Of a stretch of 4,503 nt of DNA, positions 639 to 4,503 are shown piece after piece; positions within the stretch are counted from its first letter, which is position 1, and each line of letters begins with the position of its first letter. This DNA is from a virus, in UHGV virus genome UHGV-1974775. One strand, written 5' to 3'. The translations under genes were made by a program, and so were the position numbers. The notes beneath the pieces are model-generated. The model had not been told where the DNA came from. It saw nothing but the letters and a program-made list of their open reading frames with translations, and searched no databases.

Positions 639-660
639 TATGCGCACCTTGGTGCGCATA
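639..660. repeat. Perfect inverted repeat TATGCGCACC-tt-GGTGCGCATA; its right arm is the XerC-binding arm of the dif-like site
   Basis: rc(639..648) = 651..660 exactly (10 nt arms, GC-rich). It would fold into a hairpin in the ssDNA genome and in the rep 5' leader, about 10 nt upstream of the rep SD. Confidence 0.7.
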
Positions 661-678
661 ATGTATATTTAGTTTAAC
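651..678. other. dif-like XerC/XerD recombination site (putative attP for host-Xer-mediated integration)
   Basis: Plus strand GGTGCGCATAA-TGTATA-TTTAGTTTAAC compared with canonical E. coli dif GGTGCGCATAA-TGTATA-TTATGTTAAAT (as I recall it): XerC arm 11/11, central region 6/6, XerD arm 7/11, total 24/28. It lies in the VP8-rep intergenic region. Confidence 0.75.
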
Positions 679-692
679 AAAAACAACGACTT

Positions 693-720
693 ACGATAAT
701 TATCGTAGATCGTTACGATC
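693..720. repeat. Two adjacent palindromes ACGATAATTATCGT (693..706) and GATCGTtACGATC (708..720) sharing the half-site ACGAT/ATCGT; contains two GATC sites (708..711, 717..720)
   Basis: Both palindromes are visible directly in the sequence: four copies of the pentamer ACGAT/ATCGT in alternating orientation within 28 nt, overlapping the candidate rep promoter spacer and -10. Confidence 0.6.
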
Positions 721-731
721 AACTTTGTCAA
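702..731 (-). promoter_or_regulatory. Candidate sigma70-type promoter for rep: -35 TTGACA (731..726), 18-nt spacer, -10 TACGAT (707..702)
   Basis: Minus strand reads TGA(VP8 stop)-TTGACA-aagttgatcgtaacgatc-TACGAT. The -35 is a perfect consensus; the -10 matches TATAAT at 4 of 6 positions including the key T1, A2 and T6. Identified by eye only. Confidence 0.35.
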
Positions 732-851
732 TCAAAGACGAATACCGCCACGCATCGAACGGGCTTTAAAGTTTCGCTTATGCGTCTTTGCGTACTTACG
801 GAACGAACGACGAGAAGAACGCTTGGACATACGACGGCGAGAACGAGCCAT
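732..851 (-). CDS. VP8: Small arginine-rich DNA-binding protein (VP8/J-like), 39 aa
   Basis: Hand translation of minus strand 851..732 gives MARSRRRMSKRSSRRSFRKYAKTHKRNFKARSMRGGIRL, followed by TGA (734..732). About 40% of residues are Arg or Lys (11 R, 5 K in 39 aa). The C-terminal MRGGIRL resembles the C-terminus I recall for the Chlamydia-phage small basic ORF8 protein. ATG is 1 nt after the VP2 stop (TAA 855..853), with GGAGG at 860..856. Absent from the ORF track, probably because it is below the length cutoff. Confidence 0.72.
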   Translation of the reverse strand: MARSRRRMSKRSSRRSFRKYAKTHKRNFKARSMRGGIRL

Positions 852-852
852 A

Positions 853-1635
853 TTACCTCCTAGGGGTTACTCGGAAAAACAGGGGGGAAGAATCCCCCCT
901 TTGGTTTACGGACTTAGCACTATTAGAATCGCGAAAGCCAAAGCCATCAAGACCTGAAATACGACGTAACCAACTACCAATCGCATTACCTTGTCCGACA
1001 AACCCTTTCCCTTGAGAGTCATAATTAACCTTAAGTGATTGAGCACCAGTCGGTGTATTCAAATAATCAGCCAGAACCTTGTCCTGAACAGTTTGATACT
1101 GTGTTCTAATCCGCTGCGCAGAACTGAGGCCTGTCTGTGCTTCAATATTGGCACGACGAGAAGCCTCGGTCAAAACCTGCTGATTAATCAGATTCGACTG
1201 CGATCGCATGTTATCGGCACTCTGGATAGCCTGGTCAGCCTGAGCCGTTTTAAGACGCACATCAGCCGCGCTATTCGCAATCTGGTTACGTTGTAACGCA
1301 ATCTGAGACTCAATGCCTTCACGGGCAACCTTTTGCTGCTCACGCTTCGTCAGAGCGTCGAACGCGGCAACGGCAGAGTTAACCGCACCAGAATAATCGG
1401 CAGGGGCAGCCTGCTGAATACCGGAAGAACTGACGGAACCAAGACCACCGGAACCATTAACGGCCAGAATCGGGTTAAGACCTGCTTTTCGCAAATCCTG
1501 TACGCGGTACTGCATACCGTTTTTGGCCAAATCCATCGTTAACTTGTTCGCCTGAGCGGCGTTCTGCTGGGCAGAGTGGGCACCAAGAAGAGAACCGGCA
1601 ACGGAACCTACAGCACCTGCAATTGCTCCCCACAT
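853..1635 (-). CDS. VP2: Minor capsid / DNA pilot protein
   Basis: 260-aa ORF immediately downstream of VP1 on the same strand. It has a Gly/Ala/Ser-rich N-terminus, the motif YRVQDLRKAGLNPILAV (the AGLNP motif recalled from Microviridae pilot proteins) and a Gln/Ala-rich central region that looks coiled-coil-like. SD GAGGTG lies 5 nt upstream of the ATG at 1635. Confidence 0.78.
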   Translation of the reverse strand: MWGAIAGAVGSVAGSLLGAHSAQQNAAQANKLTMDLAKNGMQYRVQDLRKAGLNPILAVNGSGGLGSVSSSGIQQAAPADYSGAVNSAVAAFDALTKREQQKVAREGIESQIALQRNQIANSAADVRLKTAQADQAIQSADNMRSQSNLINQQVLTEASRRANIEAQTGLSSAQRIRTQYQTVQDKVLADYLNTPTGAQSLKVNYDSQGKGFVGQGNAIGSWLRRISGLDGFGFRDSNSAKSVNQRGDSSPLFFRVTPRR

Positions 1636-1649
1636 AATTTCACCTCATG

Positions 1650-1672
1650 AAAAAAAGGCCTCCGAAGAGGCC
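1650..1672 (-). terminator. Rho-independent terminator/attenuator between VP1 and VP2
   Basis: On the minus-strand transcript, 13 nt after the VP1 stop (TAA 1688..1686): GGCCUC-UUCG-GAGGCC (6-bp GC-rich stem 1657..1662/1667..1672 with a UUCG tetraloop) followed directly by seven U (1656..1650). The VP2 SD and ATG follow 14 nt later. Confidence 0.6.
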
Positions 1673-1685
1673 AAAGAGTTGGGTT

Positions 1686-3365
1686 TTAAAAATGGTCAAT
1701 AAGACCGGGTACTGAATAAACTGGCATAGGCCGCACACATTTCAGGTCAAAGAATGCATCCAGAATGAACTGAGGCTCGTCCTGAACGGCCAGAACACGA
1801 CTCATCGGTGGATTCTCTTCGATGAACTCCTGATTCAATGCGGGCAGAGAGTCGAACCGCTGGGCTAAATGCCACACATCGAGGGATTGCGGGTCTGTGG
1901 AACGTAATTTACCAGTAATCTGGGATGGACGATAGCGGTACTCCGCGTAACGTTCCTGATAGCCAAAGACTTCATCATCTTTAGCGTTGCCTTGCGCATA
2001 AATCTCCTTGTTAAGAATAGCCTGTTCGCCCAGGTGGGCCAGTGCAGGCCAGTAGAAATCAAAGCGGGTCTGACGGGAGAACATGCGCGGGATGCCTTGC
2101 TGATAGGTCAAATCTGCACGGACAGATACAAGACCAATGACAAAACAGTGCTCCACAAAAGAATGTGAAAAACCACGGTTAACACCACCGGAAACACCAT
2201 AAGCTGCGAGGTTACCTTGTGGGCTGGCATCGGTAGTCGCAGAGTTCTGAAGAACGGGATTGATATTTATATCGAACGAACCAGAGCCAAGATACTCAGG
2301 ACGCTGAACACGGGCATCAGGAGAAATGACGCCAAAATGACTGCGAATAATCTCAATGTATCGCGTACCACCGCGAGCATCACGCTCAAGCAGGCGCTGA
2401 AGCTGGAACGCCTGACGCAATGAGTTAATCGTGAGATTGTCAACAACTTCACCACCTGTCTTTTCCAAAGTAACCGGAGGTTTGCCCGGAAGGAAACCGG
2501 AAATAACGTCATAACGTCCCTGAACAGGAGATTCAGGCCAGTTAATACCATTCTGAAGGCCACCGCTCAAATAGAGACCTGTATCGGCGTCAAGACCACT
2601 ACGGGCAATATAGCCCGTACCAGCAACAGTCTGGCCGCCGGCGCCATAAGACTGCGTAAAGAACGCTAAACCATCCGGATATTCCGGATAATTCAACGAG
2701 TACGACGGCGGAACGCCTAAACCAATCTCAACACCTTCGCCTTTCTGAGGCCACGGAAGGGCACTTGTGAAGTAATCATGACGCTTGGCACGCTTACGCA
2801 GCGGGAAATTTGCGAGACCTGTTTCCGTCTCATCGCCAAGCGGAAGCGGGGCGGAATTAATCAGGTTTTCGTCACGATACCACTCGTTATAAATCAGGTT
2901 ATAAGCGCGGAACGGCAGGGCGCTTACGCTGATACCTTCGACACCTGTAGGAACACCAAAATAATCGGCAAGAGAGCCAACAGGGAAACCGCCAGCAGGG
3001 GCTGTAATCTGCGGAATCAAATAATCCGTAGAATCACCAGGGTTCTTCTGTTCTCCGTTGAATTTCTGCCAGTTATCCCAGACGAGGCGATAAGGTACAG
3101 AAAAATACTGAATATCCAGACGTAGATTATCCATGAAAGGAACCACGGGCGTGGAAAGACGCGCGAGAACACTCGTTTTAAGGTGGAACGTATCACCCGG
3201 CAAAGCCTCATCCAGAAACACGGGAATCAAATAACCAGCGTCAAAGGTGGTTTTATAACCAGAACTACGGTTAAAGACCGAACGCTGAATATTAGCACTC
3301 GGGATTACTGAAAAATTATGCTGACTTTTTGCATTACTAGGTACTTTACGACCGAATTTACTCAT
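1686..3365 (-). CDS. VP1: Major capsid protein
   Basis: 559-aa ORF. The N-terminal region (SVIPSANIQRSVFNRSSGYKTTFDAGYLIPVF...LARLSTPVVPFMDNLRLDIQYFSVPYRLVWDNWQKFNGEQKNPGDSTDYL...YFTSALPWPQKG) matches the conserved pattern of gokushovirus VP1 as I recall it from Chlamydia-phage-type capsid proteins. ATG at 3365 preceded by a G-rich SD (GAGGGGGG). It is the largest ORF and fills 37% of the genome. Confidence 0.95.
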   Translation of the reverse strand: MSKFGRKVPSNAKSQHNFSVIPSANIQRSVFNRSSGYKTTFDAGYLIPVFLDEALPGDTFHLKTSVLARLSTPVVPFMDNLRLDIQYFSVPYRLVWDNWQKFNGEQKNPGDSTDYLIPQITAPAGGFPVGSLADYFGVPTGVEGISVSALPFRAYNLIYNEWYRDENLINSAPLPLGDETETGLANFPLRKRAKRHDYFTSALPWPQKGEGVEIGLGVPPSYSLNYPEYPDGLAFFTQSYGAGGQTVAGTGYIARSGLDADTGLYLSGGLQNGINWPESPVQGRYDVISGFLPGKPPVTLEKTGGEVVDNLTINSLRQAFQLQRLLERDARGGTRYIEIIRSHFGVISPDARVQRPEYLGSGSFDININPVLQNSATTDASPQGNLAAYGVSGGVNRGFSHSFVEHCFVIGLVSVRADLTYQQGIPRMFSRQTRFDFYWPALAHLGEQAILNKEIYAQGNAKDDEVFGYQERYAEYRYRPSQITGKLRSTDPQSLDVWHLAQRFDSLPALNQEFIEENPPMSRVLAVQDEPQFILDAFFDLKCVRPMPVYSVPGLIDHF

Positions 3366-3421: not shown

Positions 3422-3465
3422 CTTTTTACAGGCTTCGTGGGAGCCGCCTGTAAGTTTCGGTGTCA

Positions 3466-3502
3466 CCTGGCACAGTTACATCAAGTAGGGCACTGTGCCA
3501 GG
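3466..3502. repeat. Perfect 11-bp inverted repeat (stem-loop) in the VP3-VP1 intergenic region
   Basis: CCTGGCACAGT (3466..3476) pairs with ACTGTGCCAGG (3492..3502); loop of 15 nt (3477..3491). Located 9 nt downstream of the VP3 stop on the coding strand, with no U-run after it. Confidence 0.65.
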
Positions 3503-3510
3503 CTGCAGGG

Positions 3511-4020
3511 TCAGGAGCCGTCTGCAGGTTTCGCGGGTTCAGAACCCGCATTTGATGCTTTATTCACATCAGCACCGGAACGCTCCCGCGGGGACGCCGG
3601 AGCAGGTTCCGACTCGCGAACCTTCGGTTCGGTCGCCGAAACCTCTCCGCCGCTCAACAATCCAAGCTCACGGGCTTTATCCCAGTTCGCCGGATCACTC
3701 ATGAATTCAACGTACTGTTTAACGTTATTACCAAACATCGCGCGAGTAGCGGACGGCAGGCTATTAAAGTCGTCGTTAACGTCGTCAATTAAAGCCATTG
3801 CGTCCACATAATCGGTAATCGCGGATGCATCGTAAAATTCAGCACGTTGAGTACTGGTAAACACGGTCGTGTCTCCCGTTCTTATCGCACGCTCAACAAT
3901 CTTATTGATGTCGCACTCATCGCGGAAATGCTGCTGGGTCATCGTGGGTTCTTTGAACTCGATGCCGGGCGACGGTGGCGGGTCATAGCGGGTATGGAAC
4001 TTACGCTTCGATGTACGCAT
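3511..4020 (-). CDS. VP3: Internal scaffolding protein
   Basis: 169-aa ORF with motifs I recognise from gokushovirus VP3 proteins: FRDECDINKIV near the N-terminus and RAMFGNNVKQYVEFMSDPANWDKARELGL later. ATG at 4020 with AAGGA 8 nt upstream. The C-terminal ~45 aa form a Pro/Ser/Ala/Glu-rich low-complexity tail. Confidence 0.8.
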   Translation of the reverse strand: MRTSKRKFHTRYDPPPSPGIEFKEPTMTQQHFRDECDINKIVERAIRTGDTTVFTSTQRAEFYDASAITDYVDAMALIDDVNDDFNSLPSATRAMFGNNVKQYVEFMSDPANWDKARELGLLSGGEVSATEPKVRESEPAPASPRERSGADVNKASNAGSEPAKPADGS

Positions 4021-4270
4021 TTTCAGAATCCTTCAGAAAGGCCGGAGTAGCTTCACAAACATAAACACGGTCAACGCTGACCGGAATAAGCTGTTCACCC
4101 TCAAAATCAAACGAAGTTACGCGATACAACGCAAAATCAGTACGCTGCATGCGGTTACAAAACGCATGCAATTGACCTTTCGCAATACCATCATGCTGAG
4201 CCATAAACATATAAACATCAGCATTAATCAGCTTGTCGTGAAATACATAAACTGCATCAGAGTGAGCCAT
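4001..4270 (-). CDS. Hypothetical 89-aa protein at the position occupied by VP5 in gokushoviruses (between rep and scaffold genes)
   Basis: ATG at 4270..4268 preceded by SD GAGGA with a 9-nt spacer (rc of 4271..4290 = aatgatGAGGAaattagaaa). The start overlaps the rep stop by 14 nt and the 3' end overlaps the VP3 start by 20 nt, a compact arrangement typical of Microviridae. I do not recognise the sequence itself, so the call is positional. Confidence 0.5.
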   Translation of the reverse strand: MAHSDAVYVFHDKLINADVYMFMAQHDGIAKGQLHAFCNRMQRTDFALYRVTSFDFEGEQLIPVSVDRVYVCEATPAFLKDSENAYIEA

Positions 4271-4503
4271 TTTCTAATTTCCTCATCATTCGCTGGAATT
4301 TAACCAGATTAAATTTATCTAAATCCTGCAAACGCCACGGGTCTAATACCTGAGCATTTAACTGGCGCTTTTCTTTATTTTGCTGCAACTTTTCCAAATC
4401 ACAGCCTGATAATAACTTGTCATAATAGCGGGGCGGTTTTATCTGACGACCGCCACGACCAATACACGCATCTGAATTAACTATGTCATCGTAATACTCC
4501 ATA
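4257..4503 (-). CDS. VP4: Replication initiation protein, 3' portion (last 81 codons plus stop), contiguous in frame with 1..617 if the molecule is circular
   Basis: ORF-track 81-aa ORF (MEYYDDIVNSDACIGRGGRQIKPPRYYDKLL...). Its first codon (4502..4500) sits immediately after the junction codon formed by positions 2,1,4503 (aaa on the plus strand = TTT, Phe), so the reading frame runs ...GIGYDFF-MEYYDD... with no stop. The combined protein is 287 aa. Confidence 0.72.
   Translation of the reverse strand, partial: MEYYDDIVNSDACIGRGGRQIKPPRYYDKLLSGCDLEKLQQNKEKRQLNAQVLDPWRLQDLDKFNLVKFQRMMRKLENGSL

What the first reader, a model, noticed from the sequence alone, without database searches (positions are those of the whole stretch)
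732..851. Unlisted 39-aa arginine-rich ORF (VP8/J-like DNA-packaging protein) tightly coupled to VP2
The ORF track omits this ORF, but the minus strand encodes MARSRRRMSKRSSRRSFRKYAKTHKRNFKARSMRGGIRL, starting 1 nt after the VP2 stop and carrying its own GGAGG. Small, highly basic proteins of this kind condense ssDNA in Microviridae capsids (phiX174 J, gokushovirus VP8) and are often missed by annotation. The plus-strand 75-aa ORF at 788..1015 listed in the track is antisense to this gene and is probably spurious.
Basis: partly seen in the sequence, partly recalled or inferred. Interest (0 to 1): 0.45.

Follow-up and report, generated by a model that had tools for sequence, protein, structure and literature searches.

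The report
Known gokushovirus VP8 DNA-binding protein gene
The 39-codon arginine-rich ORF is real, but it is the already described VP8 gene of an E. coli gokushovirus: a small basic protein that sits inside the capsid with the single-stranded DNA, and whose exact sequence is already in a solved virion structure.

Summary
The window is a complete circular Enterogokushovirus genome of about 4.5 kb, 92% identical in DNA to Escherichia phage EC6098, with all genes on the minus strand.

ORF 851..732(-) encodes MARSRRRMSKRSSRRSFRKYAKTHKRNFKARSMRGGIRL. This is 100% identical to EC6098 vp8 ("putative DNA binding protein") and to chain E of PDB 8DES, the EC6098 virion structure.

- **Selection:** ten distinct DNA versions differ at 27 sites, 21 of them third codon positions, with only two conservative amino-acid changes. 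Pooled pN/pS is 0.06.
- **Family:** the ORF matches phrog_10695 together with Chlamydia phage Chp2 ORF8 and Bdellovibrio phage phiMH2K p10. It shares their C-terminal MRGGIR[LF]-stop motif and their position directly upstream of the replication gene VP4.
- **Relation to J:** it works like phiX174 J but shows no detectable sequence similarity to it (no Pfam Microvir_J hit, hhalign null).
- **Antisense ORF:** the 75-aa plus-strand ORF is broken by stop codons in relatives and is spurious.
- **Annotation:** the gene is often missed. Seven of seven RefSeq E. coli prophage annotations omit it.

Nothing here is new, so interest is low. Side observations are an invariant G6/C6 hairpin just upstream, a dif-like site, and an origin-like stem-loop.

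The parts
732..851 (-). vp8 coding sequence (39 aa plus TGA stop), the small basic DNA-binding protein of the virion interior
   Evidence: ORF and translation. 100% identical to EC6098 vp8 and to PDB 8DES chain E. phrog_10695 E=1.6e-10. pN/pS 0.059.
765..851 (-). Codons 1-29: N-terminal Arg/Lys-rich part, the inferred ssDNA-binding and charge-neutralising segment
   Evidence: 12 R, 5 K and no acidic residues in the whole protein. This part is disordered in the EC6098 virion and leads into the capsid interior, according to PMC11281519. DNA binding itself is inferred.
735..764 (-). Codons 30-39 (ARSMRGGIRL): C-terminal anchor that binds a pocket on the inner face of capsid protein VP1
   Evidence: MRGGIR[LF] followed by a stop is shared with Chp2 ORF8, phiMH2K p10 and 40 IMG/VR loci. 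PMC11281519 reports that only the C-terminal 10 aa of EC6098 VP8 are ordered in the virion.
856..861 (-). Shine-Dalgarno AGGAGG for vp8, made of the last two VP2 codons (AGG AGG), 4 nt before the ATG
   Evidence: Sequence. GGAGG is kept in all 11 enterogokushovirus copies, even where the upstream coding sequence differs, including mar4 where another small ORF supplies it. AGG is otherwise rare in the genome and absent from vp8.
853..1635 (-). VP2 (DNA pilot protein, 260 aa). Its TAA stop (855..853) is 1 nt from the vp8 ATG.
   Evidence: ORF. phrog_8693 'pilot protein for DNA ejection' E=2.4e-19. EC6098 annotation.
881..900 (-). Context: invariant 8-bp hairpin AGGGGGG-ATTC-CCCCCCT inside the 3' end of VP2, 29 nt upstream of the vp8 ATG, followed here by a T-run
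   Evidence: Terminator-like scan. Present with the same stem and a variable loop in all 11 relatives. Role unknown.
702..731 (-). Context: sigma-70-like promoter TTGACA-18-TACGAT starting directly after the vp8 stop, probably for VP4
   Evidence: Consensus scan, 10 of 12 matches. The same sequence follows vp8 in EC6098 and several prophages. Function not tested.
788..1015 (+). Antisense 75-aa ORF: spurious
   Evidence: No PHROG or Pfam hit. The frame is broken by stop codons in L001, L005, L010 and L015, and is unrelated beyond vp8. vp8 wobble positions fall on its second codon positions, and both non-mirror antisense frames have pN/pS of 3.8-7.3.

Best explanation
ORF 851..732(-) is vp8, the small basic structural DNA-binding protein of an Enterogokushovirus (Microviridae, Gokushovirinae).

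Shown:
- It is a conserved protein-coding gene under strong purifying selection.
- It is identical to a protein modelled inside the EC6098 virion.

Inferred from the EC6098 and SpV4 structures and from phiX174 J biology:
- About 60 copies per T=1 particle enter with the ssDNA during packaging.
- The C-terminal tail (..MRGGIRL) plugs into a pocket on the inner face of VP1.
- The Arg/Lys-rich N-terminal two thirds (17 positive charges, none negative) bind the ssDNA and neutralise its charge. Sixty copies would give about 1020 positive charges against 4503 phosphates, or about 23%. This tethers the genome to the capsid wall.

Expression is inferred to start at a strong AGGAGG formed by the last two VP2 codons, with the ATG 1 nt past the VP2 stop. 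Ribosomes can therefore initiate afresh or re-initiate after VP2.
For: - **Genome identity:** an Enterogokushovirus, 91.7% identical over 90% of its length to EC6098, with the six-gene layout VP4-VP5-VP3-VP1-VP2-VP8 (PMC7062461).
- **Peptide identity:** identical to EC6098 vp8 and to 8DES chain E 'Putative DNA binding protein'. 8DES chain A matches window VP1 at 1174.8 bits.
- **Selection:** ten distinct nucleotide versions differ at 27 sites, 21 at codon position 3. The only amino-acid changes are T23S and R26K. Pooled pN/pS is 0.059, against 3.8-7.8 in the four non-mirror frames.
- **Signals:** start codon, stop codon and GGAGG are kept in all copies.
- **Family:** phrog_10695 is hit by this ORF (1.6e-10), Chp2 ORF8 (5.8e-19) and phiMH2K p10 (8e-08). 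Identity is 54% to Chp2 ORF8 and 41% to phiMH2K p10.
- **Wider family:** 40 IMG/VR microvirus contigs carry a basic ORF, mostly 32-42 aa as called from the first ATG, that ends at MRGGIRL (38 of 40 with no residue after it). S13, F17 and N27 are invariant in the 18-sequence alignment, which also includes Chp2 ORF8 and phiMH2K p10. In all 37 loci with a VP4 match, the ORF lies directly upstream of VP4 on the same strand.
- **Literature:** VP8 has been seen on the capsid interior in SpV4 and EC6098 and is described as the analogue of phiX174 J (PMC11281519; PMC11945456).
- **Codon use:** vp8 uses CGT for 10 of its 12 Arg codons and never AGG, whereas VP2 ends in AGG AGG.
Against: - Nothing was measured on this particular virus. 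Virion presence is transferred from EC6098 by sequence identity.
- DNA binding by VP8 has not been shown directly in the papers read. It is inferred from charge, location and the J analogy.
- RefSeq labels EC6098 vp8 'nonstructural protein', which conflicts with the structure.
- The 4-nt gap between SD and ATG is short.
- vp8 lies downstream of a canonical terminator after VP1 (1672..1657) and of a terminator-like hairpin (900..881). How a 60-copy protein is made in excess of VP2 is unexplained.
- SpV4 VP8 is also seen in empty capsids, so packaging may not follow the phiX174 scheme exactly.
Confidence: 0.93

Rival explanations
1. The ORF is a chance open frame in a non-coding or VP2-trailing region, with no protein product.
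For: Short ORFs are common here: 44 of at least 30 aa in 4.5 kb. There is no Pfam hit. The exact peptide is absent from the 15-billion-protein collection.
Against: pN/pS is 0.059, with 21 of 27 variable sites at wobble positions. The peptide is identical to a chain modelled in a cryo-EM virion structure. It hits a PHROG profile, and homologues occur across Gokushovirinae with conserved synteny.
Confidence: 0.01
2. The real gene is on the plus strand (75-aa ORF 788..1015 or 44-aa ORF 823..957), and the minus-strand ORF is its mirror image.
For: Both plus-strand ORFs exist. The antisense frame whose wobble positions coincide with those of vp8 (the frame of 823..957) also shows a low pN/pS of 0.134.
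Against: The 75-aa frame carries stop codons in L001, L005, L010 and L015 and is unrelated beyond vp8. The 44-aa ORF overlaps vp8 by only 29 nt. Its frame has no start codon upstream of 823, and its continuation into VP2 is not conserved. Its low pN/pS is the expected mirror effect. Neither ORF has a family hit. All other genes are on the minus strand.
Confidence: 0.01
3. VP8 is a real protein, but a non-structural regulator (for example a DNA- or RNA-binding factor acting in replication or gene expression) and not a virion component, as the RefSeq label 'nonstructural protein' implies.
For: RefSeq product name for EC6098 vp8. Chp2 ORF8 is also labelled non-structural. The gene always sits next to the replication gene VP4.
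Against: The identical 39-aa sequence is a chain of the EC6098 virion entry 8DES. PMC11281519 reports VP8 density inside both EC6098 and SpV4 capsids and a 5-10 kDa band in purified SpV4. An extra intracellular role is not excluded.
Confidence: 0.03

Closest known systems
VP8 of Escherichia phage EC6098 (Enterogokushovirus; QIQ61034.1; PDB 8DES chain E)
   Same: 100% amino-acid identity over all 39 residues. Same position after VP2 and before the dif-like site and VP4. Same GGAGG-TAA-ATG junction.
   Different: Seven synonymous nucleotide differences in vp8. The gap between the VP2 stop and the ATG is 1 nt here and 2 nt in EC6098. The preceding VP2 C-terminus is a different mosaic variant.
Gokushovirinae VP8/ORF8 family (Chlamydia phage Chp2 ORF8, Bdellovibrio phage phiMH2K p10, Spiroplasma phage SpV4 VP8; phrog_10695)
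   Same: Small size and basic composition. Conserved S13, F17 and N27, and C-terminal MRGGIR[LF]-stop. Lies directly upstream of VP4. Same PHROG.
   Different: Identity is 54% to Chp2 ORF8 and 41% to phiMH2K p10. In those genomes, and in 38 of 40 IMG/VR loci, the upstream neighbour is VP3 or VP5 or non-coding DNA, not VP2. The tight VP2-VP8 junction is therefore specific to enterogokushoviruses in this sample. The SpV4 tail is RGGRRF.
phiX174 protein J (Pfam PF04726 Microvir_J; phrog_2354 'DNA condensation')
   Same: About 38 aa, with a basic N-terminal part and a short C-terminal tail that binds the inner face of the coat protein. Present in the virion with the ssDNA. The last four residues are structurally superposable according to PMC11281519.
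   Different: No detectable sequence relationship: no PF04726 or phrog_2354 hit, and hhalign probability is 0.4%. The gene position differs (between D/E and F in phiX174). The N-terminus runs towards the 5-fold axis in gokushoviruses and towards the 2-fold axis in phiX174. VP8 has more basic residues than J, 17 against 12.

Membership tests
Gokushovirinae VP8/ORF8 small DNA-binding protein (phrog_10695) | Significant match to the family profile | tested here: met
   phrog_10695 E=1.6e-10, residues 3-39 on profile positions 2-39 of 39. The reference members Chp2 ORF8 and phiMH2K p10 hit the same PHROG.
Gokushovirinae VP8/ORF8 small DNA-binding protein (phrog_10695) | Small (about 32-44 aa), highly basic, no acidic residues | tested here: met
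   39 aa, 12 R, 5 K, 0 D/E. Family members compared.
Gokushovirinae VP8/ORF8 small DNA-binding protein (phrog_10695) | C-terminal capsid-anchor motif MRGGIR[LF] immediately followed by a stop, plus conserved Ser, Phe and Asn in the body | tested here: met
   Ends ..SMRGGIRL*. S13, F17, N27, R31 and M33-R38 are invariant in the 18-sequence alignment. 38 of 40 IMG/VR ORFs stop right after the motif.
Gokushovirinae VP8/ORF8 small DNA-binding protein (phrog_10695) | Located directly upstream of the replication initiator gene VP4 on the same strand | tested here: met
   Window: vp8 851..732, then 114 nt, then the VP4 ATG at 617. Same arrangement in Chp2, phiMH2K and all 37 IMG/VR loci with a VP4 match.
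Gokushovirinae VP8/ORF8 small DNA-binding protein (phrog_10695) | Physically present inside the virion, bound to VP1 | tested here: met
   By sequence identity only. The 39-aa peptide equals PDB 8DES chain E, in the same entry as the capsid protein that matches window VP1. Confirmed in the literature. Not measured for this isolate.
Gokushovirinae VP8/ORF8 small DNA-binding protein (phrog_10695) | Binds ssDNA and is needed for packaging | not testable with these tools
   Inferred from charge, interior location and the analogy with phiX174 J. No biochemical test is available here.
Microvirus J protein (Pfam PF04726 Microvir_J) | Match to the Pfam Microvir_J profile | tested here: not met
   No Pfam hit even at E<=1. 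phiX174 J scores 60.9 bits, and Chp2 and phiMH2K VP8 also give no hit.
Microvirus J protein (Pfam PF04726 Microvir_J) | Profile-level similarity to J | tested here: not met
   hhalign of the 18-sequence VP8 alignment against phiX174 J gives probability 0.4% with 1 aligned column.
Microvirus J protein (Pfam PF04726 Microvir_J) | Architecture: basic N-terminal part plus a short C-terminal tail bound to the coat protein's inner surface | tested here: met
   Composition and the published structural comparison. This supports 'works like J', not membership.

The most novel reading that the evidence does not exclude
Three elements may form a previously undescribed expression module: the VP2-vp8 junction (rare AGG AGG codons doubling as the SD, and the ATG 1 nt after the VP2 stop) together with the invariant G6/C6 hairpin 29-44 nt upstream (146 nt in Microvirus mar4). 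The module would let a 60-copy protein be made from the far end of a transcript that also encodes VP2, whose phiX174 counterpart H is present at only 10-12 copies per virion. The hairpin could, for example, stabilise the 3' part of the mRNA or pause ribosomes. Alternatively, the hairpin could act in the ssDNA, as a priming or packaging signal.
Probability: 0.15. Interest if true: 0.35.

Novelty: already known. Interest (0 to 1): 0.08.

Why it matters
It matters mainly for annotation quality. vp8 is a real structural gene that automated pipelines miss: seven of seven RefSeq E. coli gokushovirus prophages omit it. Among the tblastn matches, all in microvirus records, 38 of 60 lie under no annotated feature. 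A simple rule would recover the gene in most of the gokushovirus genomes sampled here: a basic ORF of roughly 32-44 aa that ends in MRGGIR[LF] directly upstream of VP4. Biologically it adds nothing new, because the protein sequence is identical to one already seen in a solved virion.

Tried and rejected
- **Pfam** scan of the peptide: no hit.
- **hhalign** of a VP8 family alignment against phiX174 J: no similarity. Sequence homology to J cannot be claimed.
- **Exact look-up** in the 15-billion-protein collection: absent. This may reflect a length cut-off or gene callers skipping the ORF. For that reason I did not spend a homologous-protein search.
- **tblastn against phage records:** the low-complexity filter masked the N-terminal half, so only residues 19-39 aligned and most E-values were weak. 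I used it only for its taxonomic pattern (60 of 60 records are microviruses) and for annotation status.
- **Primary EC6098 cryo-EM paper** (PMC9645218): not held. Its findings are cited second-hand from PMC11281519.
- **Rfam and tRNA scans:** nothing in the region, so an RNA-gene reading is dropped.
- **Antisense gene:** considered and rejected.
- **Structure prediction:** not attempted, because a 39-aa disordered basic peptide would not give an informative model.

Full report
**What is there.** On the minus strand, an ATG at 851..849 opens a 39-codon frame that ends with TGA at 734..732.

- The preceding 260-aa ORF (1635..853) ends with ..CCT AGG AGG TAA. One base follows the stop, then the ATG.
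- The AGGAGG at 861..856 is therefore made of the last two codons of the upstream gene and sits 4 nt before the ATG.
- Length alone means little, since the window has 44 ORFs of at least 30 aa.
- With 12 Arg, 5 Lys and no acidic residue, the ORF has the highest K+R fraction of the ATG-started ORFs of at least 30 aa: 0.44 against 0.24 for the next.

**What the window is.** The whole window matches Escherichia phage EC6098 (genus Enterogokushovirus, Gokushovirinae, Microviridae) at 91.7% identity over 90% of its length. It matches Microvirus mar4 at 87%. All genes lie on the minus strand.

| Gene | Coordinates | Evidence |
|---|---|---|
| VP4 | starts at 617, runs across the window ends, 287 aa | |
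| VP5 | 4270..4001 | |
| VP3 | 4020..3511 | Chlamy_scaf, 6.5e-35 |
| VP1 | 3365..1686 | Phage_F, 6.6e-185 |
| VP2 | 1635..853 | phrog_8693 'pilot protein for DNA ejection' |
| small ORF | 851..732 | this finding |

This is the six-gene layout VP4-VP5-VP3-VP1-VP2-VP8 described for enterobacterial gokushovirus prophages (PMC7062461).

**Identity of the ORF.** The GenBank record of EC6098 annotates a 120-nt CDS in the same position as vp8, 'putative DNA binding protein'. Its translation is identical to the window peptide. The mar4 homologue differs by one residue.

A search of PDB sequences returns one hit, 8DES chain E, 'Putative DNA binding protein', 39 aa and identical. Chain A of the same entry is the major capsid protein and matches window VP1 at 1174.8 bits. 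I could not read the primary paper. PMC11281519 states that VP8 was observed in the EC6098 capsid with only its C-terminal 10 residues ordered. It also reports that SpV4 VP8 residues 9-38 line the inner capsid surface, with the C-terminus buried in a pocket of VP1.

**Is the frame under selection?** I collected the region from EC6098, mar4, seven E. coli chromosomal prophages (all next to hipBA) and one IMG/VR contig.

- All keep a 39-codon ORF.
- Ten distinct nucleotide versions differ at 27 sites. Twenty-one are third codon positions, and most of the others are synonymous CGN/AGA or CTT/TTR changes. Only T23S and R26K alter the protein.
- Nei-Gojobori counts pooled over all pairs give pN/pS = 0.059 in the vp8 frame.
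- The two other sense frames and two antisense frames give 3.8-7.8. The antisense frame whose wobble positions coincide with those of vp8 gives 0.134, the expected mirror effect.
- Synonymous divergence reaches about 0.5 between the most distant pairs, so the conservation is not due to recent common ancestry.
- The start codon, a stop codon (TGA or TAA) and GGAGG are retained in every copy. This holds even though the DNA just upstream falls into at least two unrelated variants. In mar4 an extra 32-aa ORF, not VP2, supplies the GGAGG.

**The antisense ORF.** In the frame of the plus-strand 75-aa ORF 788..1015, relatives L001, L005, L010 and L015 carry stop codons inside the vp8 overlap. Beyond vp8 the translations are unrelated. 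It has no PHROG or Pfam hit. The vp8 wobble positions fall on its second codon positions, so it accumulates replacements freely.

**Wider family.**
- The peptide hits phrog_10695 (E=1.6e-10), a family that PHROGs labels 'unknown function'. Chp2 ORF8 and phiMH2K p10 ('putative DNA binding protein; similar to phiX174 J') hit the same PHROG.
- Identity is 54% to Chp2 ORF8 and 41% to phiMH2K p10, and all three end in MRGGIR[LF]-stop.
- A pattern scan of IMG/VR found 40 loci on contigs of about 4.1-8.7 kb (all but two under 5.1 kb). Each carries a basic ORF, mostly 32-42 aa as called from the first ATG, and 38 of the 40 stop immediately after MRGGIRL.
- In an 18-sequence alignment, S13, F17 and N27 are invariant although the search pattern did not impose them.
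- In Chp2, phiMH2K and all 37 IMG/VR loci with a VP4 match, the ORF lies directly upstream of VP4 on the same strand. The same holds in the window.
- The upstream neighbour differs. It is VP3 or VP5 or non-coding DNA in most genomes, and VP2 only in the enterogokushoviruses. The tight VP2-vp8 junction is therefore a derived feature of this genus in my sample.

**Relation to phiX174 J.** J belongs to Pfam Microvir_J and phrog_2354 'DNA condensation'. VP8 hits neither. hhalign of the VP8 alignment against J finds nothing (probability 0.4%). The published structural comparison reports that only the last four residues superpose across subfamilies and that the N-termini run in different directions. 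So VP8 works like J but cannot be filed in the J sequence family.

**Mechanism.**
- Shown: the ORF is a conserved, translated-looking gene, identical to a virion-internal protein.
- Inferred from the structures and from established phiX174 J biology as cited: about 60 copies per particle; the C-terminal ARSMRGGIRL tail docks in VP1; the N-terminal basic part binds ssDNA.
- Sixty copies at +17 each give 1020 charges, about 23% of the 4503 phosphates. The same calculation for J on phiX174 gives 13%.
- Expression: vp8 uses CGT for 10 of its 12 Arg codons and never AGG, while VP2 ends in AGG AGG. This argues that those two codons are kept as an SD.
- Open point: vp8 lies downstream of a canonical terminator after VP1 (1672..1657) and of a terminator-like hairpin at 900..881. 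How it reaches a higher copy number than VP2 is not explained.

**Annotation.**
- None of the seven RefSeq (PGAP) prophage annotations has a CDS between VP2 and hipA, although the ORF is intact in all seven.
- Thirty-eight of 60 tblastn matches, all in microvirus records, lie under no annotated feature.
- The exact peptide is not in the 15-billion-protein collection.
- RefSeq calls EC6098 vp8 'nonstructural', which the structure contradicts.

**Verdict.** The feature is already known, down to an identical sequence in the PDB. Interest is low. The only loose ends are regulatory details around the gene, listed under things noticed in passing.

Noticed in passing
window 881..900 (- strand), inside the 3' end of VP2: Hairpin AGGGGGG-NNNN-CCCCCCT (8-bp stem, about -16 to -17 kcal/mol). 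The stem is invariant in all 11 enterogokushovirus copies, while the loop (ATTC, ACGC or AACC) and the flanks vary. It lies 29-44 nt before the vp8 ATG, and 146 nt in mar4. A T-run follows it only in the window, L004 and L005. This conservation inside a hypervariable part of VP2 suggests a role at the nucleic-acid level.
   Followed up: partly
window 651..678 (+ strand) and 639..660: dif-like site GGTGCGCATAATGTATATTTAGTTTAAC, with a degenerate putative XerD-binding arm. This is the phage dif-motif used for XerCD integration in this genus (PMC7062461). Here the GGTGCGCATA end of the site is repeated in inverted orientation (648..639), giving a hairpin TATGCGCACC-AA-GGTGCGCATA. In the prophages, host DNA follows the site instead.
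   Followed up: partly
window 3459..3502 (- strand), between the VP3 stop and the VP1 start: A 44-nt stretch that is 96-98% identical to distant microviruses (Eel River pequenovirus, bajarodmic viruses) in unannotated DNA. It is a 10-bp stem CCTGGCACAG/CTGTGCCAGG with a loop containing TACTTGATGTAA (DNA fold z = -4.2). The loop shares ACTTGAT with the phiX174 origin at the annotated nick position 4306. Chp2, L041 and L050 have the same loop on different stems. It is probably the rolling-circle origin.
   Followed up: partly
window 702..731 (- strand): A sigma-70-like promoter, TTGACA-18-TACGAT, begins directly after the vp8 stop codon and contains the palindromes GATCGTAACGATC and ACGATAATTATCGT. 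It is likely the VP4 promoter. It is conserved in EC6098 and some prophages and replaced by other sequence in L003, L005, L006 and L010.
   Followed up: no
window 1657..1672 (- strand): Canonical intrinsic terminator GGCCTCTTCGGAGGCC followed by T7, between the VP1 stop (1686) and the VP2 start (1635). It would lower transcription of VP2 and vp8 relative to VP1. A weak sub-threshold Rfam suhB match covers the same spot.
   Followed up: no
L003 (Microvirus mar4) 1959..2057: mar4 carries an extra 32-aa hydrophobic ORF (MFSRLLTPVLLALDSLYVAVDAIVKIVRSFGG) inserted between VP2 and vp8. Its last codons supply the GGAGG for vp8. It might be a small membrane or lysis peptide.
   Followed up: no
window about 853..1000 (VP2 C-terminus): The last 40 or so codons of VP2 are mosaic among close relatives. 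The window shares its variant (..SSPLFFRVTPRR) with prophages L004 and L005, whereas EC6098 and the others end ..QQQLINNYRR. vp8 immediately downstream stays invariant. This agrees with the variable region noted in PMC7062461.
   Followed up: partly
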